Virus record (IMG/VR): IMGVR_UViG_2687453529_000007 | Length of the DNA: 19,211 bases | Strand: one strand, 5' to 3' | Source: a virus | Lineage: Duplodnaviria; Heunggongvirae; Uroviricota; Caudoviricetes | Shown: in pieces, positions 1 to 18,419 of the stretch | How the letters are laid out: the number at the start of each line of letters is the position of its first letter | Position numbering within the stretch: the first letter of the stretch is position 1 | Notes under the pieces: model-generated | Told to the model about the DNA's origin: nothing | What the model saw: only the letters and a program-made list of their open reading frames with translations | The model's database searches: none | Translations under genes and position numbers: made by a program

Positions 1-924
1 GTGGCAAAGCAAAAGTTCAAAATCACCAACTGGCCCACCTACAATAAAGCCCTCATCAACCGTGGCTCCATAACTTTCTGGCTGGATGATGAAGCTATTC
101 AGGCCTGGTATGAGTCAGCAACACCTTCTTCACGAGGCAGACCTCAGCGCTATTCTGACCTTGCCATCACGACTGTGCTGGTCATTAAACGCGTATTCAG
201 GCTGACCCTGCGCGCTGCGCAGGGCTTTATTGATTCCATTTTTTCTCTGATGAACGTTCCGCTACGCTGCCCGGATTACAGCTGTGTCAGCAGGCGGGCA
301 AAGTCGGTTAATATCAGTTTCAAAACGCCCACCCGGGGTGAAATCGCACACCTGGTAATTGATTCCACCGGGCTGAAGGTCTTCGGTGAAGGCGAGTGGA
401 AAGTCAAAAAGCATGGCCAGGAACGCCGTCGTATATGGCGTAAGCTGCATCTGGCAGTTGACAGTAAAACACATGAAATCATCTGCGCTGACCTGTCGCT
501 GAACAACGTTACGGACTCAGAGGCCTTCCCCGGGTTAATCCGGCAAACCCACCGGAAAATCAGGTCAGCCGCCGCCGATGGAGCTTACGATACCCGGCTC
601 TGTCACGATGAACTGCGGCGTAAGAAAATCAGCGCGCTTATCCCGCCCCGAAAAGGTGCGGGTTACTGGCCCGGTGAATATGCAGACCGTAACCGTGCAG
701 TGGCTAATCAGCGAATGACCGGGAGTAATGCGCGGTGGAAATGGACAACAGATTACAACCGTCGCTCGATAGCGGAAACGGCGATGTACCGGGTAAAACA
801 GCTGTTCGGGGGTTCACTGACGCTGCGTGACTACGATGGTCAGGTTGCGGAGGCTATGGCCCTGGTACGAGCGCTGAACAAAATGACGAAAGCAGGTATG
901 CCTGAAAGCGTGCGTATTGCCTGA
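1..924 (+). CDS. IS903/IS5-family DDE transposase (307 aa)
   Basis: Full-length ORF MAKQKFKITNW...MPESVRIA, near-identical along its length to the IS903/IS102 transposase as recalled from memory. Confidence 0.9.
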   Translation: MAKQKFKITNWPTYNKALINRGSITFWLDDEAIQAWYESATPSSRGRPQRYSDLAITTVLVIKRVFRLTLRAAQGFIDSIFSLMNVPLRCPDYSCVSRRAKSVNISFKTPTRGEIAHLVIDSTGLKVFGEGEWKVKKHGQERRRIWRKLHLAVDSKTHEIICADLSLNNVTDSEAFPGLIRQTHRKIRSAAADGAYDTRLCHDELRRKKISALIPPRKGAGYWPGEYADRNRAVANQRMTGSNARWKWTTDYNRRSIAETAMYRVKQLFGGSLTLRDYDGQVAEAMALVRALNKMTKAGMPESVRIA

Positions 925-962
925 AAACACAACCCGCTACGGGGGAGACTTACCCGAAATCT

Positions 963-980
963 GATTTATTCAACAAAGCC
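963..980. repeat. IS903 right terminal inverted repeat
   Basis: GATTTATTCAACAAAGCC, matching the canonical 18-bp IS903 end. Confidence 0.8.
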
Positions 981-1508
981 ACGCGCTGGACACACCACGA
1001 TGACAGCGGTTTTATCCCTTACGCCATCACCACCGGCCTTGATTACGAGGCGATGACCGAACAGCGCAAAGGCTATGAGAACTTTGTTTATCAGAACGGC
1101 GTTTACGATCTCGGCACCAAAGGTGATATGCGACGTAACGAACGTAACCTGATGTGGAACCTCGATCCCTACATTCAAACGCACTGGCAGCTCACCTCAG
1201 CCCTGGGGCTGGACGCCGGGGCGCGCTATAGCTCGGTATGGTTTGATTCCAACGATCGTTATGTTGTAGGTAAAAATGGTGATGATAGCGGCGAAGCGAG
1301 CTATCACAAGTGGCTTCCGGCGGCAGCGCTGAAGTATGCCATGACGCCGCAGTGGAACGTTTACCTCTCTGCCGGGAGGGGATTTGAAACGCCGACCATT
1401 AACGAGCTGTCCTATCGTCCCGATGGTCAGTCCGGGCTTAACTTTGCTCTGCAACCGGCCACTAACACCACCGTTGAAGCAGGCAGTAAATGGCAGGTGG
1501 GCACCGGG
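981..1508 (+). pseudogene. Internal fragment of a TonB-dependent receptor-like outer membrane beta-barrel gene (no start, no native stop)
   Basis: Frame open directly from the IS end; translation contains TBDR-like barrel motifs (RGFETPTINELSY resembling the GF-R-APS/T-x-x-EL-Y motif; NFALQPATNTTVEAGSKWQ). Reads straight into lysC sequence in a different frame. Specific family not identified. Confidence 0.5.
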
Positions 1509-2635
1509 TGGAACGTCTGCGTTACCCGAACGTTATCCGTGAAGAGATTGAACGTCTGCTGGAGAACATTACTGTTCTGGCAGAAGCGGCGGCGCTGGCA
1601 ACGTCTCCGGCGCTGACAGATGAACTGGTCAGCCACGGCGAGCTGATGTCGACCCTGCTGTTTGTCGAAATCCTGCGCGAACGCGATGTTCAGGCACAGT
1701 GGTTTGATGTACGTAAAGTGATGCGTACCAACGACCGATTTGGTCGTGCAGAGCCAGATGTAGCCGCGCTGGCGGAACTGGCCGCGCTGCAGCTGCTCCC
1801 ACGCCTCAATGAAGGCTTAGTGATCACCCAGGGATTTATCGGTAGCGAAAATAAAGGTCGTACAACGACGCTTGGCCGTGGAGGCAGCGATTATACGGCA
1901 GCCTTGCTGGCGGAGGCTTTACACGCAACTCGTGTTGATATCTGGACCGACGTCCCTGGCATCTACACCACCGATCCACGCGTGGTTTCCGCAGCAAAAC
2001 GCATTGATGAAATCGCGTTTGCCGAAGCGGCAGAGATGGCAACTTTTGGTGCAAAAGTACTGCATCCGGCAACGTTGCTACCCGCAGTACGCAGCGATAT
2101 CCCGGTCTTTGTCGGCTCCAGCAAAGACCCACGCGCAGGTGGTACGCTGGTGTGCAATAAAACTGAAAATCCGCCGCTGTTCCGCGCGCTGGCGCTTCGT
2201 CGCAATCAGACTCTGCTCACTTTGCACAGCCTGAATATGCTGCATTCTCGCGGTTTCCTCGCGGAAGTTTTCGGCATCCTCGCGCGGCATAATATTTCGG
2301 TAGACTTAATCACCACGTCAGAAGTGAGCGTGGCATTAACCCTTGATACCACCGGTTCAACCTCCACTGGCGATACGTTGCTGACGCAATCTCTGCTGAT
2401 GGAGCTGTCTGCACTATGCCGGGTAGAAGTGGAGGAAGGTCTGGCGCTGGTCGCGTTGATTGGCAATGACCTGTCAAAAGCCTGCGGCGTTGGCAAAGAG
2501 GTATTCGGCGTACTGGAACCGTTCAACATTCGCATGATTTGTTACGGCGCATCCAGCCATAACCTGTGCTTCCTGGTGCCCGGCGAAGATGCCGAGCAGG
2601 TGGTGCAGAAGCTGCATTTTAATTTATTTGAGTAA
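1509..2635 (+). pseudogene. lysC: lysC (lysine-sensitive aspartokinase III) 3' remnant, lacking about the first 80 codons
   Basis: Translation ERLRYPNVIREEIERLLENITVLAEAAALATSPALTDELVSHGELMSTLLF...QKLHFNLFE is collinear with and near-identical to E. coli LysC from about residue 84 to the C-terminus. No lysC N-terminus or promoter; upstream sequence is the receptor fragment. Stop TAA at 2633-2635. Confidence 0.85.
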
Positions 2636-2689: not shown

Positions 2690-3037
2690 TTACGAATTAC
2701 TGCGGCGCTGTTGCTTTTCCGCATGTACGCGTTTCACAATCTTATAAATCCATTGCAGCGTCAGATTATATTTCTTCGCTAATTCGGCGTAGTTGCGCCC
2801 ATCGCACTCGCTATAGATTTGGTAGTCACGCTCCGATGCTCGTCCGGAGATCCCCTTAGGGAAATAGATGCTTTGTCCGCCCCAGTTACGCATCATTCGG
2901 TCGGCAATGGCAAAACCCACATTTTCTGCCGATGAACTGTCGAGATTGATGCTTTCAATCAGAACTTGCGATGCATGAAAAGCCAGGTCGTTAATGATCT
3001 CCGGTGTCCGGGCCATCTCTTTTGATTTTCGTATCAT
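2690..3037 (-). CDS. Mor/C-family (phage Mu middle/late operon regulator-like) transcriptional activator, 115 aa
   Basis: C-terminal region DGRNYAELAKKYNLTLQWIYKIVKR aligns with the Mu Mor helix-turn-helix region NGRNVSELTTRYGVTFNTVYKAIRR; GGAG RBS 7 nt upstream of the ATG; divergent from the lysis/tail genes. Confidence 0.75.
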   Translation of the reverse strand: MIRKSKEMARTPEIINDLAFHASQVLIESINLDSSSAENVGFAIADRMMRNWGGQSIYFPKGISGRASERDYQIYSECDGRNYAELAKKYNLTLQWIYKIVKRVHAEKQQRRSNS

Positions 3038-3258
3038 TTTTCATCTCCATATATCTTGCATCCTGAATAAGACCCGATGCGTGTAAAACCACGGATATAC
3101 GCTAAGCAGTTGTCATTACTGCTACTCAATACATTCAATAAACAAATAAACAATCACCAAAAATATAAACTTTTAATATTAATGAACGTCATAAATTCAC
3201 GAAATAAATATATTGTTTGGATTATGTTTCTTATCAACAGGAGTATCATTTTACACTA

Positions 3259-3278
3259 TACTGTATACATATACAGTA
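3259..3278. promoter_or_regulatory. LexA (SOS) operator, near-consensus
   Basis: TACTGTATACATATACAGTA versus consensus TACTGTATATATATACAGTA (CTGT-N8-ACAG core intact, one mismatch). Lies in the AT-rich divergent region between the Mor-like gene and the lysis genes, flanked by -10/-35-like hexamers on both strands. Confidence 0.75.
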
Positions 3279-3574
3279 TTATTTTTACCTGTAGAGTAAA
3301 AAGATCGTTTCCCTCACAGTCGCTGACTTTCTTAAACAAACTTTAAAAATCAAATAACTATCGACTATTCCTACGATCCACCATCATCTTTCCCCTGCAT
3401 AATGACGCGCTTATTAGCCTGGTCACCTTTTGCTCTTTAATTGCTGAGTCGATTTATTAGCGGGCTTGTTCATTTATAGAGAATCTATTTTTTAAACTTA
3501 TTTATTAAAGCTTTTTTCATTCTTCACTGGCGGGTTCTGACGACACTAAACGCTCACTTATCAGGAGATATCGT

Positions 3575-3862
3575 ATGAAAAAAGTCACTTTTCCCCGGCT
3601 TTCCGGCTGGCTAGTCGCTTCCGCCGCGCTGTTTGTCGTGATCGGCTGGACCTCTTCCGCACAGATCCCGGTCGTCATTTATAAACTAAGCCTGGTTTCG
3701 CTTTCCGCGGTGCTGGGATACTGGCTCGATCGCAGTTTGTTCCCCTGGGCACGGCCTGACTCTTTTAGCCCCTGGAAGGAACCTCGTTGCTGCGCGGCGG
3801 CAATGATTCGCCGCGCCATCATCGTTGCCGCCGTCTGTCTTTCCGTCGCCTTAGGGCTATAG
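3575..3862 (+). CDS. Small multi-pass membrane protein, putative holin (95 aa)
   Basis: AGGAG RBS 7 nt upstream; three hydrophobic segments; stop overlaps the start region of the downstream lytic transglycosylase (TAGTGATG). Function inferred from position. Confidence 0.45.
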   Translation: MKKVTFPRLSGWLVASAALFVVIGWTSSAQIPVVIYKLSLVSLSAVLGYWLDRSLFPWARPDSFSPWKEPRCCAAAMIRRAIIVAAVCLSVALGL

Positions 3863-3864
3863 TG

Positions 3865-4470
3865 ATGTGGCTGAAATATATCGCGTCTATGATTATTTTC
3901 GTTCTTTTCCCGCTTAACGCCTCTGAACCGCCGCGAGCCTCTCTGGCATGGCGAAACGAACTAATTCGTACAGCTCGAGAAGTCTGGGGGCTGAATGCTC
4001 CAGTGGCCGACTTTGCCGGGCAATTACACCAGGAGTCCGCCTGGCAGCCAATGGTACGTTCCCCCGTTGGCGCACAAGGTATGGCGCAATTTATGCCTGC
4101 TACAGCGACATGGATAAGCCAGTTGTATCCACAATTGCGTGAAAACAAACCGTATAACCCAACCTGGGCGATTCGCGCGCTGGTGCAATATGACCAGCAT
4201 TTGTGGAAAAACATCTCTGCGAAAAATGATTGTCAGCGTATGGCGTTTACCCTAAGCGCCTATAACGGCGGTCAGGGGTGGGTTAACCGGGATAAAAAAC
4301 TGGCTGCATCCAAAGGGTTAGATGCCACTAGCTGGTTTGGTCATGTTGAGCAAGTCAACGCCGGGCGCAGCGCCACGAACTGGCGAGAAAATCGTCGCTA
4401 TCCAAAGATGATCCTCTATCAACATGCCGCCCGCTATTTACTCTGGGGACAGGCAAGCTGTCTTCATTAA
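3865..4470 (+). CDS. Phage lytic transglycosylase (SLT domain) endolysin with N-terminal signal/SAR-like hydrophobic segment
   Basis: N-terminal MWLKYIASMIIFVLFPLNA hydrophobic stretch, then SLT motifs (LHQESAWQP with catalytic Glu, GMAQFMPATA, AYNGG). The track ORF 3787-4470 begins earlier with a non-ATG codon; ATG at 3865 sits directly after the holin stop. Confidence 0.8.
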   Translation: MWLKYIASMIIFVLFPLNASEPPRASLAWRNELIRTAREVWGLNAPVADFAGQLHQESAWQPMVRSPVGAQGMAQFMPATATWISQLYPQLRENKPYNPTWAIRALVQYDQHLWKNISAKNDCQRMAFTLSAYNGGQGWVNRDKKLAASKGLDATSWFGHVEQVNAGRSATNWRENRRYPKMILYQHAARYLLWGQASCLH

Positions 4471-4482
4471 TCAGAGGGGCCG

Positions 4483-4797
4483 ATGAAACTCAGTATCGAT
4501 TTTTGGGAAGTGATCTCCCTTATGCTTTCCTTCGTTGGATTAATGTTTGCTGCCGGAAAACTGCTGTTAGCACAAATTGAAAAACGACTTAATGAGCGTT
4601 TTGAGTCTCTGGAAAATGCCCGCAGGGAATCAGAAACAAGTTGGTCGAAACTGGAAAGAGAATTTCTCGAATTTCGTGCCGAGCTTCCGCTGCATTATGT
4701 CCGCAGAGAAGATTATCTTCGTGGGCAAGCAGTATTAGAAGCGAAGCTGGATGCCTTATATAGCAAAATCGAGCTGTTACAACGTGGCAGTTATTGA
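4483..4797 (+). CDS. Lysis accessory protein, Rz/i-spanin-like (N-terminal TM helix + coiled coil), 104 aa
   Basis: N-terminal TM segment EVISLMLSFVGLMFAAGKLLLA followed by charged coiled-coil-like sequence; position after the endolysin. No convincing embedded lipoprotein (o-spanin) ORF found by eye. Confidence 0.4.
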   Translation: MKLSIDFWEVISLMLSFVGLMFAAGKLLLAQIEKRLNERFESLENARRESETSWSKLEREFLEFRAELPLHYVRREDYLRGQAVLEAKLDALYSKIELLQRGSY

Positions 4798-4802
4798 AAA
4801 AT

Positions 4803-4834
4803 CCCCACCCTTATGTAAGGGTGGGGATTTTTTT
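4803..4834 (+). terminator. Rho-independent terminator closing the lysis cassette
   Basis: CCCCACCC-TTATGTAA-GGGTGGGG stem-loop followed by ATTTTTTT; an A-run upstream makes it potentially bidirectional. Confidence 0.85.
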
Positions 4835-4941
4835 AACCATTCAATTTTTTCTCTAAATCACATTAAAAGATTCTTCACCTTCGCTGCTTCAGAATACATT
4901 TCAACGATAACGAAGTGAGCGGTAATTAAGGTACAGCCTAT

Positions 4942-5397
4942 ATGGAAATTTTATCTGTAATGAATTCTGTTGTGACCAGATTACGTGAACACAACTCCGA
5001 AATGGATATATTTATTTCATCTAAGGATGCCCAGAAATATATTCCACAGACACAACGAGTTGCAGTGATTATTAATTATAGCGGTTCTGTCTTTGCTACG
5101 CCCGAAAGCAGTAATGCCATCGTGCAACAGCAAATACTCCGCTTAACCGCCACCGTTATTGTTGGCAAAAATTGTGATGCATTAAACGCACTTGATCACA
5201 TACGCAGCGCATTGGGTGGCCTTCCGCTTCCTGATTGTGATCGTCTGCTTTGGCTTGAAAAAGAAATTAATACGGGTGAGAGCGGCGGTTTCTGCCGCTA
5301 CATCCTGGAAATGGCGACCAGCTCGCTGTTTATCGCTGAACAGGAAAGCACGGATCTTCCCCTGCTTACGGAAGTTAACTACGAGGAAACTGAATGA
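4942..5397 (+). CDS. Putative tail completion / sheath-terminator-like protein (151 aa)
   Basis: First gene after the terminator, immediately upstream of a small ORF and the sheath gene, coupled to the next ORF. Family assignment is by position only. Confidence 0.35.
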   Translation: MEILSVMNSVVTRLREHNSEMDIFISSKDAQKYIPQTQRVAVIINYSGSVFATPESSNAIVQQQILRLTATVIVGKNCDALNALDHIRSALGGLPLPDCDRLLWLEKEINTGESGGFCRYILEMATSSLFIAEQESTDLPLLTEVNYEETE

Positions 5398-5591
5398 AAT
5401 ACATCTACAACGGCCCAGCAAGCGGCGTCACCCTTGCCGATGGACAAGAAATCTTATTGTGGCCGAACAGTGAAATTGATCTGCCAGAAGACAACGAGTG
5501 GGTCATGACCATGATTGCCCGCAATCATCTGACTCCTGTCATCACTCAGGAAGAACAAAATAACGTAGAGGAAATTGTACATGGCAGCTAA
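5394..5591 (+). CDS. Small conserved phage tail-module protein (65 aa) preceding the sheath gene
   Basis: GAGGAA RBS; ATG overlaps the upstream stop (ATGA); 3' end overlaps the sheath start by 11 nt. Function unknown. Confidence 0.4.
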   Translation: MKYIYNGPASGVTLADGQEILLWPNSEIDLPEDNEWVMTMIARNHLTPVITQEEQNNVEEIVHGS

Positions 5592-7005
5592 TTATCTGCA
5601 CGGTGTAGAAACTATTGAAATTGAAACCGGCCCGCGTCCGGTTAAAGCGGTAAAATCCGCCGTCATCGCTTTAATCGGTACATCCCCCTGCGGTCCGGTA
5701 AATAAACCAACATTATGCCTTTCTGAAAGCGATGCTGCGCAGTTTGGCTCGACTCAGGCTAACTTTACGATCCCACAGGCACTGAAGGCAATTTATGACC
5801 ACGGTGCCGGTACGGTGGTGGTGATTAACGTGCTGGATCCGGCAAAACATGGCTCCAACATCAGCAATGAGAGTATCACTTTTGATGCTAACAACCAGGC
5901 GAAGCTCGCTCACCGCAATGTGCGTAACGTGGTACTAAAGCCCTCTTCATCAAATTCATCAACCTTTAACACCGCAGCATTTAGCGTAGATGAACAAACA
6001 GGCATAATTACCCGTAAAGGAGCCGACATTCCTCCTGGTGCGAAAGTTTGTGCCTATTATTCCTGGTGCGACCCTACAAAGGTCACCGCAGCCGATATTA
6101 TCGGTACCGTAAATACCGCAGGCGACCGCACGGGGATGAAACTCCTTCAGGACACCTATAACCTGTACGGTTTCTACGCCAAAATCCTGCTTGCTCCTGT
6201 GTTTTGTACGCAAAAATCGGTGACTACTGAGCTGATTGCACAAGCGGAAAAACTCGGTGCGATTACCTACATTGATGCCCCGATTGGGACAACATTCCAG
6301 CAGGTATTGGCTGGACGCGGTTCGCAAGGGGCTATCAACTTCAATACCAGCTCTGATCGTGCGCGTTTATGTTACCCACATGTCAAAGTTTACGATGGCA
6401 TCACTAACCAGGAAATTCTTGAGCCTCTCTCTTCGCGTGCTGCCGGGCTGCGTGCCAAAGTAGACCTCGAAAAAGGTTTCTGGTGGAGCAACTCAAACCA
6501 GGAAATTCAGGGTATTACCGGTATTGAACGTTCGCTTTCCGCAATGATTGATGATCCACAAAGCGAAGTGAATCAGCTCAACGAAAACGGCATTACCACT
6601 ATTTTCAATAGTTACGGCTCTGGTCTGCGCTTGTGGGGTAACCGCACAGCGGCATGGCCTACCGTGACCCATATGCGTAACTTTGAAAACGTCCGCCGGA
6701 CAGGCGATGTAATCAATGAGTCAATCCGTTATTTCAGTCAGCAGTATATTGATATGCCGATTAATCAGGCACTTATTGACGCGCTGACCGAATCGGTAAA
6801 TACCTGGGGCCGAAAACTGATTGCCGACGGCGCACTGCTTGGCTTTGAGTGCTGGTACGATCCGGCACGAAATTCACCGGCTGAACTCAGCGCCGGGCAT
6901 TTATTGCTGAGCTATAAATTCACCCCGCCACCGCCGCTGGAACGTCTGACGTTTGAAACTGAAATTACTTCTGAATATTTAGTCTCTCTGGAGAGCAATA
7001 GCTAA
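5581..7005 (+). CDS. Contractile tail sheath protein (P2 gpFI-like)
   Basis: N-terminus MAANYLHGVETIEIETG resembles P2 FI (YHHGVQVLEINEG) and the C-terminus LLSYKFTPPPPLERLTFETEITSEYL resembles P2 FI ([26 protein letters not shown]). GAGG RBS 9 nt upstream of ATG 5581; the track ORF begins at TTG 5575. Confidence 0.9.
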   Translation: MAANYLHGVETIEIETGPRPVKAVKSAVIALIGTSPCGPVNKPTLCLSESDAAQFGSTQANFTIPQALKAIYDHGAGTVVVINVLDPAKHGSNISNESITFDANNQAKLAHRNVRNVVLKPSSSNSSTFNTAAFSVDEQTGIITRKGADIPPGAKVCAYYSWCDPTKVTAADIIGTVNTAGDRTGMKLLQDTYNLYGFYAKILLAPVFCTQKSVTTELIAQAEKLGAITYIDAPIGTTFQQVLAGRGSQGAINFNTSSDRARLCYPHVKVYDGITNQEILEPLSSRAAGLRAKVDLEKGFWWSNSNQEIQGITGIERSLSAMIDDPQSEVNQLNENGITTIFNSYGSGLRLWGNRTAAWPTVTHMRNFENVRRTGDVINESIRYFSQQYIDMPINQALIDALTESVNTWGRKLIADGALLGFECWYDPARNSPAELSAGHLLLSYKFTPPPPLERLTFETEITSEYLVSLESNS

Positions 7006-7529
7006 TGGCTGGAAAAATTCAAATTAACCGTATTACCAACGCCAATATTTATCTCGATGGTAATAACCTTTTAGGTCGTGCAACAGAAATTAAATTGCCG
7101 GATGTAAGTTTAATTATGCAGGAGCATAAAGCACTGGGCATGGTGGGTAAAATCGAACTCCCGGCAGGTTTCGATAAACTGGAGGGCGAAATTAAATGGA
7201 ACTCCTTCTATCAGGACGTAATGCGTAAAACGGCAAACCCGTGGCAGGCGGTTGCATTACAGTGCCGCTCCAGTATTGATTGCTATAACTCCCAGGGGAA
7301 AGCGAATCAATTAGCGCTAGTGACACATTTAACCGTGATGTTTAAAAAGAATCCACTGGGCACATTTAAACAGAATGAAAACCCGGAATTCAGCAGCGCC
7401 TTTGGTTGCACTTATATTAAACAAGTAGTTGATGGTGAAACGCTGCTTGAACTTGATTATATGGCCAATATTTTCCGGGTTAATGGTGTGGATCAATTAA
7501 GTACCTATCGCAATAACATCGGTGGCTAA
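7005..7529 (+). CDS. Tail tube protein (P2 gpFII-like)
   Basis: Start overlaps the sheath stop; C-terminus NGVDQLSTYRNNIGG matches the P2 FII end NGVDRLEQHRRNIGL. Confidence 0.85.
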   Translation: MAGKIQINRITNANIYLDGNNLLGRATEIKLPDVSLIMQEHKALGMVGKIELPAGFDKLEGEIKWNSFYQDVMRKTANPWQAVALQCRSSIDCYNSQGKANQLALVTHLTVMFKKNPLGTFKQNENPEFSSAFGCTYIKQVVDGETLLELDYMANIFRVNGVDQLSTYRNNIGG

Positions 7530-7579
7530 GTTATTCGGGGCTACGGCCCCGAACTTTGCAAAATAAATAAGGACACAAA

Positions 7580-7897
7580 ATGAAAGAACATTATATCTTG
7601 CAGTTTCCATTTACGTCGGCAGCAGGAAATAATATCGACACGCTGCAATTACGTCGCCTGAAAGTAAAAGATATGCGCAACGCCCGCCGGATCAGCGAAA
7701 AGCCAGAAGAGTGGGATGAACCGCTGATGGCGGCGATGACCGGACTGGTGCCAGAAGATTTAGCCGAAATGGATTTGCTGGATTACCAGGCATTGCAGAA
7801 ACGATTTCAATCCATGCTTACCGTGGTTACAGAATCCTCCCCTGCTATGGCAGGCAATGGCGCTACTGGCGAGATGGTTTCGCTTTCCGCCCAGTGA
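7580..7897 (+). CDS. Tail assembly chaperone (gpE/gpG-like), short product
   Basis: Small acidic protein between tube and tape measure genes, the position of frameshifting tail chaperones. Confidence 0.6.
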   Translation: MKEHYILQFPFTSAAGNNIDTLQLRRLKVKDMRNARRISEKPEEWDEPLMAAMTGLVPEDLAEMDLLDYQALQKRFQSMLTVVTESSPAMAGNGATGEMVSLSAQ

Positions 7898-7985
7898 GAT
7901 AGACGCCCTTACCGTCGATGACTTTAGCAACTGGCTGGATGAAGCCAGCGCCCAAATAAAAATCGAATATGACTCGCAGACCTGA
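7580..7985 (+). CDS. Frameshift-extended chaperone isoform (E+E'-like), requiring a +1 shift
   Basis: A +1-frame ORF is open from 7764 to the TGA at 7983-7985 and would append ...PPSEIDALTVDDFSNWLDEASAQIKIEYDSQT. The only candidate shift motif seen is CTT_TCC at 7883-7888. Site and mechanism are not proven. Confidence 0.4.
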
Positions 7986-8086
7986 TGTCTGCGAGTTTCC
8001 CAAGCCCGTCAGGTTTATTTCTTCCCTGCCCCTTTTTTTAGAAAAATAACCAGCGGGCCATTATCAATATTTAAAGAGAAACAATT

Positions 8087-8887
8087 TTGGCCAACGATAT
8101 TATTACCCAGCTTCAGGCGCGTAATGAGACGTTGACGCAGGCAATAGCCCGTTACGGCTCACTCAACGCCAGAACATTGTTAACTCTCTCTACTCAGCAG
8201 GCGACAGTTATCAAACTAACGCAGCAGCTTGCCGATTCCGCTCTCCGCCTGGAGGAAAATAGCCGCAGCCGCGCTAATCTGATGGAGAAAACCCAAACAT
8301 TTGCCGGGCAATTTAGCAAAGTATTCAATGTTGAAGCCCCCGACTGGAAGTTGCCGTATGAGTTTCAGGACAACATGGTCAATATGGCGACCAAAGGTGG
8401 GATGAATGCTACAACCCGCGAGACGCTCAGCCTTAATCTGCGCGACTGGAGCATGGATTTTAACCAGCAGCAGACCACCTTACAGAACGCAGCCCAAACG
8501 CTGATCGAAGGCAATTTGTCGTCGATGCAGGATCTCAACCGTTATATGCCGGAGATCGCCAAAGCTGCCACCGCCACGCGCGAAAGTGCTGAAACGTGGG
8601 CGAATGCCGCGCTCGCGACTCATGATCGACTGAATATTGCCCCGGAAAATTTCCACGCCGCGCAAAACATGATGTACGGCATTAGCAAAAGCGGTGGGCC
8701 TGCCATTGCTGAACAAACGCAGTGGATAGAGAAATTTGCAGGTAAAACCGGCGCTCAGGGTCTGGAAGGTATGGCTGAACTGACTGCCGCCATGCAGATC
8801 GCAATGAAAAATGGGGCCAGCGCCAGTGCGGCGGCGGAGAATTTTGAACCACTTTCTGCAAACCACCTTTTCGAAAAAAACCGATAG
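8087..8887 (+). CDS. Tail tape measure protein, N-terminal segment (frame A); TTG start
   Basis: Helical N-terminal region typical of tape measure proteins; ends at TAG 8885-8887 while a second frame continues. In-frame stop at 8072-8074 restricts the start to the TTG at 8087 (RBS AAGAG upstream). Confidence 0.6.
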   Translation: MANDIITQLQARNETLTQAIARYGSLNARTLLTLSTQQATVIKLTQQLADSALRLEENSRSRANLMEKTQTFAGQFSKVFNVEAPDWKLPYEFQDNMVNMATKGGMNATTRETLSLNLRDWSMDFNQQQTTLQNAAQTLIEGNLSSMQDLNRYMPEIAKAATATRESAETWANAALATHDRLNIAPENFHAAQNMMYGISKSGGPAIAEQTQWIEKFAGKTGAQGLEGMAELTAAMQIAMKNGASASAAAENFEPLSANHLFEKNR

Positions 8888-10463
8888 CTGGTTCGCCAGC
8901 CAGGGCGTCGATCTGCAAGGCTCTCTGCTTGAACATCAGCAAAACGGTATGGGTGTTAGCGAAGCCATGACTCATATCGTACAAATGCAGCTTGAGAAGA
9001 TGAACCCGGCGATCCTCGACACCTTCAAACGTACTATGCAGATTGAAGATTTATCTGCTCGCAGCAATGCGCTGCAATCGATGGTGTCGCAATTTAATCT
9101 GGGCGAAATGTTCGGCGATGTGCAAACGGTGGAATTCCTGGCACCTATGCTGGCGAATATGGAGGAATATCGCCAGTTAAAAGCCTCTGCCATGCAAGCC
9201 ACCAGCAAGAATCTGATTAACGCTGACTTTTCTGCGCAAATGGCCTCGCCCATTGAACAGACTAAAGCGTTACAGCTGGCATTAAATGATTTATGGCTCA
9301 GCATTGGTTTGCAGCTTATGCCGGCGATTGGCGAGCTGGCACAAAGCCTTACGACGGTTATTCGCCAGTTCAGCGCCTGGCTACGCGAACATCCGGCGCT
9401 GGTGCAAAACATTGCGAAAATCGTCGGGGCGGTTTGGCTGTTTAACGGCGCGCTGAATGTTTTAAAGCTGGGCGCGAACCTCATCACCTCGCCGTTTATT
9501 CGTCTGGTCGATATCTTCCTGAAAGTCAAGGCAAGTCTGGCGCTCACAGGCGGGGCAAGTAAGATGCTATCAGCGGTTAAGTCATTGGGTGGCGGCGCAA
9601 AATGGCTAATGCAACTGCTTGGTCGTGGCCTGATTGGCGCACTGAAACAGGTAGGTCAGACCGTCTTCTGGTTGGGTAGGGTTTTATTGATGAATCCCAT
9701 TGGTCTGGTCATCACTGCGATTGCGGGCGCTGCTTATCTGATTTGTCGCAACTGGGAGCCTATCTCCAGGTTCTTTTCGACCATCTGGCAACGTATCACC
9801 ACGGCCTTTGACGGCGGCATTGCAGGAATTTGTCGGTTGATTCTCGACTGGTCACCGCTGGAGTTGTTCTATAGCGCCTTTTCCAGTGTGATGAATTGGT
9901 TTGGTGTCGAGATGCCTGCAAGTTTTAGCGAGTTCGGCAGCAATCTTCTGGGCAGTCTGGTTGACGGCATAATGAATGCCTTCCCCGCTCTGAAAGGCAT
10001 TATTGATCAGGTAAAAAACGCCATCCCAGACTGGCTAAAAACCACGATGGGTATTAGTACAGAAGGATCGGCTACAGCTATTACAAGCACGACTAATACC
10101 GCATCCGTCTCCCCCGCGACCGTTGTTCCAGGCGTTGCCGGTGCGATTTTAACACCGCCGGTGGGCAAACAACTCGCGCCATCCGGCAAAACGGCTACGC
10201 CGTCATCGGCGCCAGCGGCAAAAAATACAGCCGCCAAACCCGTATCTGCCTCTTTACCTGGTAAATCCGTAACCAAACCGGCGACGCTACCCTCCCGTTC
10301 CTCAGGAAAAGTCCAGGTAAATTTTTCGCCACAAATTACCGTGCAGGGTAACGGACAAAACACCACTAAAGAGATTCAGAACGTGTTGACGATGAGTAAA
10401 CGCGAACTGGAAAGAATGATTAACGATGTAATGGCGCAGCAGCAGCGCCGGGGGTATGCCTGA
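8811..10463 (+). CDS. Tail tape measure protein, main/C-terminal segment (frame B, +1 relative to frame A)
   Basis: Frame B opens after the TGA at 8805-8807 and encodes typical tape-measure content (LQTTFSKKTDSWFASQGVDLQ motif region, long hydrophobic/Gly-Ala-rich middle, Ser/Thr/Pro-rich tail). Segments together total about 790 aa. Confidence 0.65.
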   Translation: MGPAPVRRRRILNHFLQTTFSKKTDSWFASQGVDLQGSLLEHQQNGMGVSEAMTHIVQMQLEKMNPAILDTFKRTMQIEDLSARSNALQSMVSQFNLGEMFGDVQTVEFLAPMLANMEEYRQLKASAMQATSKNLINADFSAQMASPIEQTKALQLALNDLWLSIGLQLMPAIGELAQSLTTVIRQFSAWLREHPALVQNIAKIVGAVWLFNGALNVLKLGANLITSPFIRLVDIFLKVKASLALTGGASKMLSAVKSLGGGAKWLMQLLGRGLIGALKQVGQTVFWLGRVLLMNPIGLVITAIAGAAYLICRNWEPISRFFSTIWQRITTAFDGGIAGICRLILDWSPLELFYSAFSSVMNWFGVEMPASFSEFGSNLLGSLVDGIMNAFPALKGIIDQVKNAIPDWLKTTMGISTEGSATAITSTTNTASVSPATVVPGVAGAILTPPVGKQLAPSGKTATPSSAPAAKNTAAKPVSASLPGKSVTKPATLPSRSSGKVQVNFSPQITVQGNGQNTTKEIQNVLTMSKRELERMINDVMAQQQRRGYA

Positions 10464-11416
10464 TGTATGCCGTTTTAGGAGAGATTGAATTTAAGGTTGT
10501 CACATTCTGGGACGGCTTTAAAAGCACAATGGGCGTGGATTACGCCACACATGCCCGTATAGAAGGCAAACCCGGCGTGCAGTTTATTGGCGATAAGCTG
10601 GATATGCTGGCGCTGGAATTTTCCCTGCACAGCCAGTTTTGCCAGCCCACAACAGAGCTGAACCGACTGCGTGAAGCCATGCTTGCTCACAAGGCGATGG
10701 CACTGGTATTTGGCAATGGCGATTATCGCGGCTGGTTTGTGATTACGGAGCTAACCGCCACCCACCAGCACACCGATCCCTGGGGCAATGTGATTGCCCA
10801 AAACGGAACGATGTCGCTCCAGGAGTACACCGGCGATCCTAAAAATCCACTTTTACCTCCGGCGATTACCACCCAGGAGCCCAACATCGAGGAAAAGGCG
10901 AGCGATTTTCCCGACAAGGTGGAGTCCTGGTTTGATCAGATATTAAACGCCATCGAAGAAGGTATGCGTAAGGCCAAAGAGATGCTGGATGAACTGACAC
11001 AAGCCATTGAAGATATTAAAAAAACGGTGGCAAAAGTGAAAGCAATGATTAAAGAGGCCAAAGCGTTAAAAGAAAAGTGTGAAAAGATAATTACGTCATT
11101 GAAAAAGACAATCGACGCCATCGAAACCCTGTTTAAACAGCCAATGGATCTGCAAACGCTGGCAGGACTCCCAAAAGCGTTGTCGGCGCAGATTAAAACT
11201 TTACTGGGTAACATGCCAGGTATCCGGGACTGCGCCAATGACGCCAGTACACTGGTTGACCATGCTCAGGCGCTTTTCGACGACATTACCAGCGACATCG
11301 CCGAAGCGACGTTTGATAAAGCCGCAACGTTGGTTGATCAGGCACGAACAACGGTACAACAAACCACTCCCACAGTGAGCCAGCTTGCTGCCGCGACCAT
11401 TACGAGGATCTGGTGA
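10463..11416 (+). CDS. gpU-like tail protein with long C-terminal coiled-coil extension (317 aa)
   Basis: Sits between tape measure and gpX/gpD as P2 gpU does; ATG overlaps the tape measure stop (TGATG). C-terminal ~190 aa are E/K/A-rich predicted coiled coil. Assigned by synteny and weak N-terminal resemblance. Confidence 0.5.
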   Translation: MYAVLGEIEFKVVTFWDGFKSTMGVDYATHARIEGKPGVQFIGDKLDMLALEFSLHSQFCQPTTELNRLREAMLAHKAMALVFGNGDYRGWFVITELTATHQHTDPWGNVIAQNGTMSLQEYTGDPKNPLLPPAITTQEPNIEEKASDFPDKVESWFDQILNAIEEGMRKAKEMLDELTQAIEDIKKTVAKVKAMIKEAKALKEKCEKIITSLKKTIDAIETLFKQPMDLQTLAGLPKALSAQIKTLLGNMPGIRDCANDASTLVDHAQALFDDITSDIAEATFDKAATLVDQARTTVQQTTPTVSQLAAATITRIW

Positions 11417-11625
11417 TGCGATACCTTGAACATATCACCACCGACGGCGAACGCTGGGATAATCTGGCATGGCATTACTACGGTGATGCGCTGGCTTATG
11501 AACGCATAATCGCCGCCAATCCACATGTAGCCATTTACCCGGTACTGCCTTCCGGTATTCAGCTCATTATTCCGGTCATTTCCGTCAATAAAACCTTATC
11601 GGAGATCCCACCATGGCTGAGATAA
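11416..11625 (+). CDS. gpX-like small tail protein (LysM-like fold)
   Basis: Pattern L-x-x-I-x-x-x-x-ERWD-x-L-A-W-x-YYGD...AANP...LPSG matches the P2 gpX family; ATG 11416 overlaps the upstream TGA (track start 11413 is a GTG). Confidence 0.6.
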   Translation: MRYLEHITTDGERWDNLAWHYYGDALAYERIIAANPHVAIYPVLPSGIQLIIPVISVNKTLSEIPPWLR

Positions 11626-12653
11626 GCGTAACTGGTGGCGTCTTTGCCACACTCACGCCCATTTTTACCCTCTGGTATGGGCATAAAGATATCACTTATG
11701 ACATCACACCCTATGTCACCAGCATCAGTTACCACGACAGCATCAAAAACGAGTCGGATACCATCGCAATTACACTGGATGACACAGATGGACGCTGGAT
11801 AAAAGAGTGGTATCCCGGCAAAGGCGATACGCTGGCGCTGCATATGGGTTATCAGGGAGAGAAGCTGCTCGATTGTGGTCAGTATATTATTGATAAAATT
11901 GATATTTCAGCGCCACCTTCTACGGTAAATATTGATGGCATCGCCACTTCCGTCAATCAGGCGCTGCGCACCCGTAACAGCCAGGGTTTTGAAGAAACGA
12001 CGCTTTCGGCTATCGCCAGCCGTATCGCACAAACTCACGGCCTAAAGCTGGTGGGCAAAATCGAGCCTCTGACAATTGACCGGGTGACACAGTACGGCGA
12101 AACCGATGTTGGATTTCTCAAACGTCTGGCCAGTGAATATGGTTATGCCGTAAAAGTGACGACGAAAGAGCTGATTTTTTCACATTTACCCACGCTGCGC
12201 TGCCTGGCACCTGTGAAAAAGATCGACCGCAAAGACGTTTCGCATTTCACCTTCAAAGATACCATTAACCGTATCTACAAAAACGCCACCGTACAGCATC
12301 AAAATAGTAAGAAAAAAGAACTGGTTATCTACACTCACAACAGCCAGCAAAAACCGTCTGCCCGTGGAGTCGGCACCAGTGCCGACACGCTAAAACTGAA
12401 CAGTCGGGCGACGGACGTTGGCGCAGCACAGGCAAAAGCCAACGCTGCACTCGACAGCCACAACGAATATCAGCAAACCGGAACGCTCACAATGATGGGC
12501 TGCCCGGAACTGACGGCGGGCAATAAAATCGAGCTAACCGATTTTGGCGTGCTTTCCGGTCAATGGCTAATTGATAAATCGACTCACAGTTTTGTGCGCA
12601 GCGGCTATACCACTGAAATCGACGTGTCGCGCGGGCCAGCGACCAGCCAGTAA
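11613..12653 (+). CDS. gpD-like tail protein (late control D family; baseplate hub)
   Basis: Collinear similarity to P2 gpD: TLSAIASRIAQ / DVGFLKRLASEYG / C-terminal DFGVLSGQWLIDKSTHSFVRSGYTTEIDV. GGAG RBS. Confidence 0.8.
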   Translation: MAEISVTGGVFATLTPIFTLWYGHKDITYDITPYVTSISYHDSIKNESDTIAITLDDTDGRWIKEWYPGKGDTLALHMGYQGEKLLDCGQYIIDKIDISAPPSTVNIDGIATSVNQALRTRNSQGFEETTLSAIASRIAQTHGLKLVGKIEPLTIDRVTQYGETDVGFLKRLASEYGYAVKVTTKELIFSHLPTLRCLAPVKKIDRKDVSHFTFKDTINRIYKNATVQHQNSKKKELVIYTHNSQQKPSARGVGTSADTLKLNSRATDVGAAQAKANAALDSHNEYQQTGTLTMMGCPELTAGNKIELTDFGVLSGQWLIDKSTHSFVRSGYTTEIDVSRGPATSQ

Positions 12654-12662
12654 GGAGGAAAT

Positions 12663-13364
12663 ATGAAAGGAGTAACCCGTCAAACGGGGATTATCAGCGA
12701 TATTGACGAAACCAGCGTTCGGGTGCGGGTCACGCTCCCGGAGTGTGACAATCTGAAGAGCAACTGGCTTGCGGTACTTCAACGCAATTCCCAGGACAAT
12801 AAAGACTACTGGCTACCGGATATGGGCGAGCAAGTGGAAGTTCTGCTGGACAATAACGGTGAAGATGGCGTGGTGCTGGGCGCAGTTTATTCTACGGTTG
12901 ACACCGCGCCTGTAGCCTCGCGCGACAAACGTTACGTCCAGTTTTCTGATGGCGCAGCGTTTGAATATGACCGCAGCACGCACCAGCTGACGATCAACGG
13001 CGGTATCGAGAAAATCGTGATTGAGGTTATCAACGGTACCTGCCTGACATCGCCCAACGTTGAGATTAAAGCCCAACAGGTCACCGTGACTTCCGATACC
13101 GTCGATGTTAAAGCGACCGATGTCAGCATCGACGCCACTAAGGTCGAGGTTAAAGCAGCAGCAGTGACGGTAGATGCGCCCATGAGCACCTTTACTGGCA
13201 ACGTCACGGTAATGAAAAAACTCACCTGGCTTGGCGGGATGGCAGGAAGTGGAGGCATCGGTAACGCAGCCACGATAACCGGCAATGTCAACGTGATCGG
13301 CAACGTTCAGGCCAGCGGCGCATTGCAGGACAGCGGTGGCAACTCCAACCACCATTCACACTGA
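12663..13364 (+). CDS. gpV-like baseplate spike protein
   Basis: Strong RBS TAAGGAGG; MGEQVEVLLDNNGEDGVVLGAVYS and VQFSDGAAFEYDRSTHQLTINGG match P2 gpV motifs; C-terminal His-rich tip NHHSH. Confidence 0.85.
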   Translation: MKGVTRQTGIISDIDETSVRVRVTLPECDNLKSNWLAVLQRNSQDNKDYWLPDMGEQVEVLLDNNGEDGVVLGAVYSTVDTAPVASRDKRYVQFSDGAAFEYDRSTHQLTINGGIEKIVIEVINGTCLTSPNVEIKAQQVTVTSDTVDVKATDVSIDATKVEVKAAAVTVDAPMSTFTGNVTVMKKLTWLGGMAGSGGIGNAATITGNVNVIGNVQASGALQDSGGNSNHHSH

Positions 13365-13369
13365 CGTTT

Positions 13370-13399
13370 AACCCGCCTGATGGCGGGTTTTCTCTTTTT
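13370..13399 (+). terminator. Intrinsic terminator inside the tail gene cluster (between gpV-like and gpW-like genes)
   Basis: AACCCGCC-TGAT-GGCGGGTT stem-loop followed by TTCTCTTTTT. Confidence 0.7.
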
Positions 13400-13462
13400 A
13401 ATCAATCAGTTTTCTAAATCGCTTTAATATCTCCACAGCCCGTTCAGGGCGAAAATACCCTC

Positions 13463-13822
13463 ATGAACACAAAAACACGCCCCTCAACGCTGCACTGGCA
13501 ACCGGCCTTGCTGCGGCCTGAAGAATACGTCTGCGGACTGGATGATATTCACCAGGCAATACACATCATTCTGCGTACACCGCGCGGCAGTGATCCCCAC
13601 AGACCGCTGTTTGGCAGCAACTTGTGGCACTACATCGATTACCCCATCGAGCGGGCTATCCCGCATGTGGTACGGGAGTCGGTGGAAGCCATCCGCCAGT
13701 GGGAACCGCGCTGTCGGTTGCTGAAGGTGACACCAGTAATCGACGGCGAACATCTGACGTTACGTGTGCAATGGCGCGCCGCTGACGGCGTTATCAACTC
13801 AACGGAGGTGTTATGGCGATAG
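13463..13822 (+). CDS. gpW-like baseplate protein (GPW/gp25 family)
   Basis: ILRTPRGSDPHRPLFGSNLWHYIDYP and WEPR match P2 gpW (ILRTPVGSRVMRRDYGSLL...IDQP, KWEPR). Confidence 0.85.
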   Translation: MNTKTRPSTLHWQPALLRPEEYVCGLDDIHQAIHIILRTPRGSDPHRPLFGSNLWHYIDYPIERAIPHVVRESVEAIRQWEPRCRLLKVTPVIDGEHLTLRVQWRAADGVINSTEVLWR

Positions 13823-14928
13823 CCGAACCCAATTTTATTGACCGCGATCCTGCGCAAATTACCAGTGAGATGATTGCGCAATACGAAGATGCCAGTGGTA
13901 AAAAACTCTATCCGGCACAGGCTGAGCGGTTGCTCATCGACCTGTTTGCCTATCGTGAAAACCTTGTACGCATCGCCATTCAGGAAGCGGCGAAACAAAA
14001 CCTGGTCGCGTATTCCCGCGCGCCAATGCTGGATTATTTAGGAGAGCTGGTGGGCGTTCACCGTTTGCCTGCGCAGCCAGCAAAAACGACGTTGCAGTTT
14101 TCGGTCGTCAGTGCGTATACCAGCAATATCCTGATTCCCCAGGGGACGCGGGCCAGTGCCTCTGATAGCGTGATGTTCGCCACCGATGAAGATGTTCTGC
14201 TTCCGGCCTGGAGTTTGCATATCGCCGTTCCTGCCACCAGCCTCGCAGCAGGTGAACAGGGTAACGGCTGGCAGCCTGCACAAATTAGCGCTCTGGTCGA
14301 CAGGATTGGTCATTATGACATCAACGTAACCAACCTGACTGCGTCAACGGGCGGCTGCGGTGAAGAGAGCGATGACGCATTGCGCCAGCGTATCCAACTG
14401 GCACCAGAAAGCTTTAGTAATGCGGGCAGCTATGGCGCATACCGCTTTCATACGCTTTCTGTTAGCCAGTCGATTATTGACGTTGCAGTACTGGGGCCGG
14501 ACGAGGGATTGCCAGAAGGCTGCGTGGAGATCTACCCGCTAACCCTGAATGGACTGCCAGGAATAGAACTGCTCGCGCAAATCGAACAGGAGGTTAGCAA
14601 GGAGAAAAAACGTCCGCTGACCGACAAAGTGAGTGCGAAATGCGCTCTTCGAGTGCCGTATGAGATCCGTGCGCAGCTAACGCTGTTTACCACCGCCGAT
14701 CAGGAGACAACGCTGGCTGCGGCGCGTAAAGCGATTAGCCTCTGGACGCAACAGCGGCAGAAACATCTGGGGCAAGACATTGTGCCAAACCAGATAATCA
14801 AAGTGTTACAGGTCGATGGCGTCTATGACGTTGCGCTGAACTTGCCTACAAAACGTATTTTGCAGGCGCATGAATGGGCGGAATGCACTGCAATAGACGT
14901 CACGATCGCCGGAGTTAGCGATGGATAA
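13813..14928 (+). CDS. gpJ-like baseplate wedge protein
   Basis: Size, position after gpW and overlapping start (GGAGG RBS) fit the P2 gpJ / Mu gp47 family. Confidence 0.8.
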   Translation: MAIAEPNFIDRDPAQITSEMIAQYEDASGKKLYPAQAERLLIDLFAYRENLVRIAIQEAAKQNLVAYSRAPMLDYLGELVGVHRLPAQPAKTTLQFSVVSAYTSNILIPQGTRASASDSVMFATDEDVLLPAWSLHIAVPATSLAAGEQGNGWQPAQISALVDRIGHYDINVTNLTASTGGCGEESDDALRQRIQLAPESFSNAGSYGAYRFHTLSVSQSIIDVAVLGPDEGLPEGCVEIYPLTLNGLPGIELLAQIEQEVSKEKKRPLTDKVSAKCALRVPYEIRAQLTLFTTADQETTLAAARKAISLWTQQRQKHLGQDIVPNQIIKVLQVDGVYDVALNLPTKRILQAHEWAECTAIDVTIAGVSDG

Positions 14929-15637: not shown

Positions 15638-15639
15638 TA

Positions 15640-18406: not shown

Positions 18407-18419
18407 ATCACGCCGGGCT

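What the first reader, a model, noticed from the sequence alone, without database searches (positions are those of the whole stretch)
1..2635. Composite rearrangement scar: IS903 end / receptor fragment / truncated lysC
The IS903-group element ends cleanly at 980 and directly abuts an internal piece of a TonB-dependent-receptor-like gene. That fragment is fused at about 1508 to lysC lacking roughly its first 80 codons, with no IS end, duplication or promoter at the junction. So lysC is a pseudogene here and at least two rearrangements occurred next to the tail locus. A chimeric assembly is also possible.
Basis: partly seen in the sequence, partly recalled or inferred. Interest (0 to 1): 0.45.

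Follow-up and report, generated by a model that had tools for sequence, protein, structure and literature searches.

The report
ISEcp1 resistance-gene unit inserted in lysC
The "scar" is the right-hand end of a well-known mobile unit (ISEcp1–blaCTX-M–IS903B–receptor fragment) that jumped from a plasmid into the E. coli chromosomal gene lysC and split it in two; this is an ordinary, well-understood way for cephalosporin resistance to reach the chromosome.

Summary
IS903B ends at 980. An internal TonB-receptor fragment fills 981-1508. lysC resumes at 1509, which is its nucleotide 224.

Window 1-1508 is 100% identical to the tail of the widespread unit ISEcp1–blaCTX-M-14/65–IS903B–"ΔiroN". That unit occurs in 231 complete-genome E. 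coli records and about 1000 plasmids. ISEcp1 moves such units from its left end to an imperfect substitute right end and duplicates 5 bp of target.

Here the unit stops at 1508. Its last 14 nt (AGGTGGGCACCGGG) match the ISEcp1 right repeat at 7 of 14 positions, including the terminal GG. The join has no microhomology.

I predicted the unseen left junction as lysC nt 1-228 followed by the ISEcp1 left end, with TGGAA duplicated. The resulting 105-aa chimeric ORF exists exactly in GenBank (ALV67075.1, FH07_02360). It lies on the same 5.06-Mb E. coli chromosome that carries the window's own junction ORF (ALV67071.1, FH07_02335) and its private tail-protein variant.

So lysC is split, not deleted, by one transposition event. 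The IS903B/receptor junction arrived ready-made, and a mis-assembly is unlikely. This is a new instance of a known kind and of low interest.

One loose end remains. The junction ORF occurs a second time in that chromosome (FH07_03260). This probably reflects a secondary transposition that carried lysC DNA along.

The parts
1..980 (+). IS903B (IS5 family). The window holds bases 78-1057 of the 1057-bp element. The transposase CDS is 1-924 and the right inverted repeat is 963-980. It is cargo inside the ISEcp1 unit, not the agent of this insertion.
   Evidence: PGAP calls it an IS903B transposase in the hit records. It matches NCBIfam NF033579 and Pfam DDE_Tnp_1. The repeats match at 17 of 18 positions, and there is no 9-bp duplication (flanks GCTGTAACT and ACGCGCTGG).
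981..1508 (+). Internal 528-bp fragment (176 codons) of a foreign TonB-dependent receptor. The literature calls it 'iroN' or 'delta-iroN', but it belongs to the PqqU/YncD family. It is the distal cargo of the unit.
   Evidence: It is 100% identical to L001, L002, L007 and L008, where it follows blaCTX-M-14/65 and IS903B. It matches NCBIfam PqqU positions 312-487 of 676, E = 2e-92. The nearest chromosomal homologues are only 82-83% identical at the nucleotide level (Pseudocitrobacter faecalis and Enterobacteriaceae bacterium G50).
1495..1508 (+). Substitute right end (IRR') of the ISEcp1 transposition unit: AGGTGGGCACCGGG.
   Evidence: It matches the ISEcp1 IRR ACGTGGAATTTAGG (read in L001) at 7 of 14 positions, including the terminal GG. 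Only 11 of 1306 positions in the long form of this DNA do as well. Published IRR' sequences match at 5-8 of 14 (PMC7864471).
1509..1513 (+). Right-hand copy of the 5-bp target duplication TGGAA (lysC nt 224-228).
   Evidence: lysC identity starts exactly at 1509. The left-junction ORF, predicted as lysC nt 1-228 plus the ISEcp1 IRL, exists exactly as ALV67075.1.
1509..2635 (+). 3' part of lysC (nt 224-1350, codons 76-449 plus 2 nt of codon 75), an inactive remnant.
   Evidence: It is 100% identical to lysC in many E. coli genomes. It matches NCBIfam NF006570 positions 78-450 of 452. Pfam AA_kinase is matched only from profile position 74 of 234.
1053..1616 (+). Chance chimeric ORF across the junction: 152 receptor codons followed by 35 out-of-frame lysC codons. 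It serves as a fingerprint of this junction.
   Evidence: It is an exact match to ALV67071.1 (FH07_02335) and ALV67240.1 (FH07_03260), both on one 5,056,598-bp E. coli contig.

Best explanation
Window 1-1508 is the distal part of an ISEcp1 transposition unit: ISEcp1, a blaCTX-M-9-group gene (most likely CTX-M-14), IS903B, and 528 bp of a foreign PqqU-type receptor gene. The predicted length is 4,161 bp.

The unit was assembled elsewhere and is common on plasmids. ISEcp1 transposase recognised its own left repeat together with an imperfect IRR-like sequence inside the receptor fragment (ending at 1508). It used this instead of the usual end 637 bp further on. The unit then inserted into chromosomal lysC between nt 228 and 229 and duplicated TGGAA.

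lysC is therefore split. Nucleotides 1-228, with the promoter and lysine riboswitch, lie upstream of ISEcp1, outside the window. Nucleotides 224-1350 lie at 1509-2635.

Shown: the identity of the cargo, the exact flush boundary, the IRR-like end, and both reciprocal junctions in one genome.

Inferred: that the three proteins between the junctions are the IS903B transposase, CTX-M and the ISEcp1 transposase, and that the donor was a plasmid.

Consequence: a chromosomal ESBL gene and loss of aspartokinase III. That loss is tolerated because ThrA and MetL also supply aspartokinase activity (textbook knowledge).
For: Cargo identity. Window 1-1508 is 100% identical to loci where ISEcp1 and blaCTX-M-14/65 lie directly upstream.

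How the same unit behaves elsewhere:
- L001: long form of 4,798 bp, flanked by AGGAA on both sides.
- L008: the same long form, flanked by TAACA on both sides.
- L006 (E. coli E09 chromosome): a short form ending 14 bp before ours, flanked by TATAA on both sides.

The junction. It is flush with no microhomology. The last 14 nt match the IRR at 7 of 14 positions, including the terminal GG.

Prediction test. The ORF built from lysC nt 1-228 plus the ISEcp1 left end gives 105 aa. It is present exactly as ALV67075.1, FH07_02360.

Link to the window's source genome.
- The window's junction ORF is ALV67071.1, FH07_02335, on the same 5,056,598-bp contig.
- The window's private tail protein I variant (E126K) is ALV67055.1, found only on that contig.
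- The offset from 67055 to 67071 is 16. That equals the number of intact CDS between the two in the window.
- Exactly three proteins (ALV67072-74) separate the two junction ORFs.

Literature. ISEcp1 uses alternative right ends, makes units of variable size and leaves 5-bp duplications, often in chromosomes (PMC10100714; PMC7864471). The blaCTX-M-14–IS903B–'iroN' arrangement is published (PMC7385254).
Against: I never saw the DNA upstream of the window. ISEcp1 and blaCTX-M at this locus are inferred from the read-through of 87 nt of the ISEcp1 left end in ALV67075.1 and from counting accession numbers.

There are four locus tags but only three proteins between the junction ORFs, so one feature there is unidentified.

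The IRR-like match is modest. A score of 7 or more of 14 has p about 0.04 for a random 14-mer, and I chose the 'terminal GG' criterion after looking.

The junction ORF occurs twice in the genome, so I have not fully reconstructed the history of the locus.
Confidence: 0.93

Rival explanations
1. Local two-step scar. IS903 inserted into a receptor gene near lysC, and a later deletion fused the receptor remnant to lysC, removing the 5' end of lysC.
For: Within the window there is no canonical IS end at 1508 and no repeat of the flanking bases. IS903B also lacks its own 9-bp duplication.
Against: The receptor fragment is not a native E. coli gene. Only 217 of 5426 genomes carry it, always with IS903B and blaCTX-M, and mostly on plasmids. 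The 5' end of lysC is not deleted: nt 1-228 abut the ISEcp1 left end in the same genome, overlapping the right junction by exactly 5 bp. A deletion would not leave a 5-bp direct duplication.
Confidence: 0.02
2. Assembly chimera: plasmid-derived and chromosomal reads were mis-joined at 1508.
For: IS903B and the CTX-M unit are repeats that often break or confuse assemblies. The junction ORF appears twice in the assembled chromosome. The same region carries a 1-bp frameshift in the tape measure gene, which could be a sign of imperfect consensus quality.
Against: Mis-joins occur inside shared sequence, but here the two partners share 0 bp at the join. The reciprocal junction exists with a 5-bp overlap (TGGAA), exactly as transposition predicts. 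An independent genome (E09, L006) shows the same type of short unit with a verified duplication.
Confidence: 0.03
3. The long 4,798-bp unit inserted first, and a later internal deletion removed the last 637 bp of the unit.
For: The long form is by far the commonest. 228 of 231 records run through this point.
Against: Such a deletion would have to end exactly at the unit/target boundary while preserving the 5-bp duplication. The breakpoint lies at an IRR-like sequence ending in GG. A second, independent short form exists with its own duplication (L006).
Confidence: 0.02

Closest known systems
ISEcp1–blaCTX-M-14–IS903B–'iroN' transposition unit, long form of 4,798 bp (for example E. coli 2452 chromosome NZ_CP031833 = L001, and Kluyvera sichuanensis contig = L008)
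   Same: The content is identical base for base up to window position 1508. The mechanism is the same: ISEcp1 IRL plus a substitute right end, with a 5-bp duplication.
   Different: Our unit ends 637 bp earlier, inside the receptor fragment, at a different IRR-like sequence. Its target is lysC and its duplication is TGGAA, against AGGAA in L001 and TAACA in L008.
Short chromosomal unit in E. coli E09 (NZ_CM143881 = L006), 4,147 bp, inserted in a gene between betA and ykgG
   Same: It has the same cargo order, ends inside the same receptor fragment, splits a chromosomal gene, and has a verified 5-bp duplication, TATAA.
   Different: Its right end lies 14 bp upstream of ours (window-equivalent 1494) and its target gene is different.
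Published chromosomal ISEcp1–blaCTX-M units (PMC10100714: 55 units of 2,841-18,201 bp at 18 chromosomal positions, all with 5-bp duplications)
   Same: The behaviour is the same, including units that pick up DNA next to a previous insertion site.
   Different: lysC is not among the sites named in that paper's text or in its held supplement. No paper in the library links lysC with ISEcp1.

Membership tests
ISEcp1 (IS1380 family) transposition unit | The left boundary is the ISEcp1 left inverted repeat (CCTAGATTCTACGT), directly abutting target DNA. | tested here: met
   The IRL was read in L001. The ORF built from lysC nt 1-228 plus the IRL and 73 further ISEcp1 bases exists exactly as ALV67075.1 in the window's source genome. 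The boundary itself lies outside the window.
ISEcp1 (IS1380 family) transposition unit | The right boundary is an imperfect IRR-like sequence instead of the true IRR. | tested here: met
   1495-1508 (AGGTGGGCACCGGG) matches the IRR at 7 of 14 positions, including the terminal GG. It is among the best 11 of 1306 positions. Published IRR' sequences score 5-8 of 14. The statistical weight is modest.
ISEcp1 (IS1380 family) transposition unit | A 5-bp direct duplication of the target flanks the unit. | tested here: met
   On the right, lysC resumes at nt 224 (TGGAA at 1509-1513). On the left, lysC runs through nt 228. The overlap is exactly 5 bp.
ISEcp1 (IS1380 family) transposition unit | An ISEcp1 transposase gene and a blaCTX-M gene lie inside the unit. 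| not testable with these tools
   Both would lie upstream of window position 1. They are inferred from 100% identity of 1-1508 to units that carry them and from the three protein accessions between the two junction ORFs. The source record could not be fetched.
IS903B (IS5 family) as a simple insertion | A 1057-bp element with 18-bp inverted repeats and a DDE transposase. | tested here: met
IS903B (IS5 family) as a simple insertion | A 9-bp target duplication on both sides. | tested here: not met
   The flanks are GCTGTAACT and ACGCGCTGG. The two sides of IS903B are therefore not one interrupted sequence. This is an old feature of the unit and not a local event.
lysC (lysine-sensitive aspartokinase III) | A full-length match to the equivalog model, with the N-terminal kinase motif and the upstream lysine riboswitch. 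| tested here: not met
   Only model positions 78-450 of 452 are present. No riboswitch was found in the window, whereas it lies upstream of intact lysC in L005. This is a gene fragment.
IroN (salmochelin receptor), the name used in the literature for the fragment | The best match should be to a catecholate or siderophore receptor model. | tested here: not met
   The fragment and its full-length homologue match the PqqU equivalog best. The homologue scores 1251.8 bits against a cut-off of 1200. Siderophore-receptor models fall far below their cut-offs.

The most novel reading that the evidence does not exclude
The ISEcp1 copy sitting in lysC fired again. It skipped both the true IRR and the 1508 end and moved a longer unit, which includes at least 108 nt of lysC, to a second chromosomal site (FH07_03260). 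That would give two chromosomal blaCTX-M copies and an in-genome record of serial read-through transposition that is gradually capturing chromosomal DNA.
Probability: 0.55. Interest if true: 0.3.

Novelty: new member of a known kind. Interest (0 to 1): 0.15.

Why it matters
The value is mainly practical. The window sits immediately next to a chromosomally fixed ESBL gene, which no longer depends on plasmid maintenance. The locus also shows, base by base, how ISEcp1 trims or extends its cargo by choosing different right ends.

For genome annotation, it shows that an unexplained fusion of two gene fragments beside IS903B is really the boundary of an ISEcp1 unit. It also shows that the 'iroN' label in CTX-M-14/65 contexts is a misnomer for a PqqU-type receptor. 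Nothing here challenges current understanding.

Tried and rejected
Searches for the junction:
- No complete E. coli genome, plasmid or JGI metagenome contig contains it.

Fetching the source DNA:
- The look-up of encoding contigs found nothing for the 381-aa, 375-aa and 187-aa junction ORFs or for P0001.
- The 329-aa lysC ORF led only to unrelated frameshifted lysC contigs, L003 and L004.
- My guess that the accession was CP008697 was wrong.

Literature:
- No paper links lysC with ISEcp1, and the one lysC + blaCTX-M-14 hit was not opened. The locus-tag prefix FH07 gave nothing useful.
- The supplement of PMC10100714 lists no lysC site and no 4,160-bp unit.

Parental gene of the receptor fragment:
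- The only 100% matches in species-representative genomes are themselves IS903B-linked copies of the unit (L007, L008).
- The best native genes are 90% identical at the protein level (Pseudocitrobacter faecalis and Enterobacteriaceae bacterium G50).
- The true donor species therefore remains unidentified.

Ideas considered and rejected:
- IS903B as the agent. The junction is 528 bp from its end, and it has no 9-bp duplication.
- IS26. No IS26 end is present.
- Illegitimate recombination. There is no microhomology, and a 5-bp duplication is present.

Full report
**What is in the window.** ORF listing and direct reading show three abutting segments.

- 1-980 is IS903B. The IS5-family DDE transposase is at 1-924 and the right inverted repeat is at 963-980. 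Comparison with a full copy (L001) gives a 1057-bp element with repeats matching at 17 of 18 positions. The window starts 77 bp inside the element, exactly at the annotated transposase start.
- 981-1508 is 176 in-frame codons from the middle of a TonB-dependent receptor barrel. They correspond to residues about 351-526 of the 715-aa homologue in Pseudocitrobacter faecalis.
- 1509-2635 is lysC from nucleotide 224 to the stop codon. It is 100% identical to intact lysC of several E. coli strains.

**The junction in detail.** Three sequences were aligned at the join: the window, the long form of the receptor fragment (L001), and intact lysC (L005). The join is exactly 1508|1509 with no shared base on either side. 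The 3-bp overlap suggested by megablast was a gapped extension. The + strand near the junction has no promoter-like site, and the window has no lysine riboswitch. In intact loci the riboswitch lies upstream of the lysC start.

**Where segments 1 and 2 come from.** Window 1-1508 is 100% identical to a block found in 231 records of complete E. coli genomes and about 1000 plasmids. The plasmids are mostly from Klebsiella, Escherichia and Salmonella. In every example I opened, the block is preceded by blaCTX-M-14 or blaCTX-M-65 and by ISEcp1, either whole or truncated. The literature describes it as blaCTX-M-14–IS903B–iroN (PMC7385254).

The IS903B/receptor junction is thus old and pre-formed. IS903B has no 9-bp duplication around it, but that is a property of the unit everywhere and not of this locus. 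Only 217 of 5426 E. coli genomes carry the fragment, so it is not a native neighbour of lysC.

**How the unit moves.** ISEcp1 mobilises adjacent DNA by pairing its left repeat with imperfect substitutes for its right repeat. This gives units of variable length flanked by 5-bp duplications (PMC10100714; PMC7864471). I read the two canonical repeats in L001: CCTAGATTCTACGT and ACGTGGAATTTAGG. I then verified the behaviour for this very cargo:

| Locus | Unit length | Right end (window-equivalent) | 5-bp duplication |
|---|---|---|---|
| L001 | 4,798 bp | 2145 | AGGAA on both sides |
| L008 | 4,798 bp | 2145 | TAACA on both sides |
| L006 (E. coli E09 chromosome) | 4,147 bp | 1494 | TATAA on both sides; splits a chromosomal gene |

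In our window the unit stops at 1508. Its last 14 nt, AGGTGGGCACCGGG, match the IRR at 7 of 14 positions, including the terminal GG. Only 11 of 1306 positions in this DNA do as well. Published substitute ends score 5-8 of 14.

**A prediction and its test.** If 1508 is the right end of an ISEcp1 unit, then TGGAA (1509-1513, lysC nt 224-228) is one copy of the target duplication. The other side of the unit must then read lysC nt 1-228 followed directly by the ISEcp1 left repeat.

I built that sequence from L005 and L001. It encodes a 105-aa ORF: LysC residues 1-76 followed by PRFYVSTSKSIIKALINMHSFEIQLSPIG. An exact-sequence look-up found precisely this protein. It is ALV67075.1, 'hypothetical protein FH07_02360 [Escherichia coli]', on a single contig of 5,056,598 bp.

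**Tying the window to that genome.** The chance ORF spanning the right junction (window 1053-1616, 187 aa) is also present exactly, as ALV67071.1 (FH07_02335), on the same contig. The window's tail protein I carries a private substitution (E126K relative to CFSAN061771). It matches only ALV67055.1 on that contig.

The accession offset from 67055 to 67071 is 16. That equals the number of intact genes between the two in the window, once the frameshifted tape measure gene and the lysC remnant are treated as pseudogenes. Exactly three proteins (ALV67072-74) lie between the right and left junction ORFs, as expected for the IS903B transposase, CTX-M and the ISEcp1 transposase. That last step rests on counting, because I could not fetch the DNA.

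**Conclusion on mechanism.** One ISEcp1-mediated transposition of a unit of about 4,161 bp split lysC at nt 228/229. lysC is inactivated but not deleted.

The 3' remnant lacks the promoter, the riboswitch, the ribosome-binding site and the first 74 codons. Pfam AA_kinase is matched only from profile position 74 of 234. Loss of LysC is tolerated in E. coli because ThrA and MetL provide aspartokinase activity (textbook knowledge).

A mis-assembly is unlikely for two reasons. The partners share no sequence at the join, and the two junctions are reciprocal with a 5-bp overlap.

**Comparison with what is known.** This is a textbook ISEcp1 transposition unit. What is particular to it is the right end at 1508 and the lysC target. 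I found neither in any complete E. coli genome, plasmid or metagenome contig, nor in the searched literature.

The receptor fragment is conventionally labelled 'iroN'. However, both it and its full-length homologue fit the PqqU (YncD) equivalog model best: 1251.8 bits against a cut-off of 1200.

**Loose end.** The 187-aa junction ORF has a second accession in the same chromosome, ALV67240.1 (FH07_03260), about 169 proteins away. So at least window 1053-1616, including 108 nt of lysC, exists twice. Tail protein I has only one accession, so the second copy does not reach that far.

The simplest reading is a second ISEcp1 event that read through the 1508 end and carried lysC DNA to a new site. 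Such pick-up of adjacent DNA is documented. A segmental duplication or an assembly artefact cannot be excluded.

**Verdict.** The finding is a new instance of a well-known mobile resistance unit. Interest is low.

Noticed in passing
window 1053-1616, and a second site in the source genome (FH07_03260): The chimeric junction ORF is encoded twice in the same 5.06-Mb chromosome (ALV67071.1 and ALV67240.1). The receptor/lysC junction plus at least 108 nt of lysC is therefore duplicated about 169 genes away. This is probably a secondary ISEcp1 transposition of a longer unit.
   Followed up: partly
window 8847 (ORFs 8087-8887 and 8811-10463): A 1-bp insertion (A, in GAACC against GACC) splits the tail tape measure gene, which is a single 2376-nt CDS in E. 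coli CFSAN061771. It is the only indel in 17.7 kb of 99.98% identity. It could be a real inactivating mutation or a consensus error.
   Followed up: partly
window 2690-19211: Right of lysC lies an island of about 17 kb with no head genes. It holds a Mor-type activator, a holin, an SLT lysozyme and a complete contractile tail (sheath, tube, tape measure, baseplate, fibre, fibre assembly). A nucleotidyltransferase gene ends the window. In CFSAN061771 a slipin gene follows it before yjbD. The layout resembles a tailocin or a defective Mu/P2-like prophage. 196 of 5426 complete E. coli genomes have it next to lysC.
   Followed up: partly
window 981-1508; L010 4951-7098: The receptor fragment that the CTX-M-14/65 literature calls 'iroN' belongs to the PqqU/YncD family (NCBIfam NF041535) and is not a salmochelin receptor. 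Its donor species is not among the GTDB representatives. The best native match is 90% identical at the protein level, in Pseudocitrobacter faecalis and Enterobacteriaceae bacterium G50.
   Followed up: yes
L015 (Kitasatospora arboriphila, 1748-bp contig) and L016 (Streptomyces axinellae, 835-bp contig): Tiny contigs in two actinomycete reference assemblies carry IS903B plus the receptor fragment at 98-100% identity to the enterobacterial unit. This is almost certainly contamination of those assemblies.
   Followed up: no
window 16265-16426 and 16433-16594: The tail fibre gene contains two adjacent 162-bp segments that are about 84% identical to each other. This is an internal repeat of the fibre shaft.
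   Followed up: no
window 15296 (codon 126 of ORF 14921-15637): Tail protein I carries E126K relative to CFSAN061771. In a collection of 15 billion proteins, this exact protein occurs on only one contig, which made it a useful fingerprint of the source genome.
   Followed up: yes
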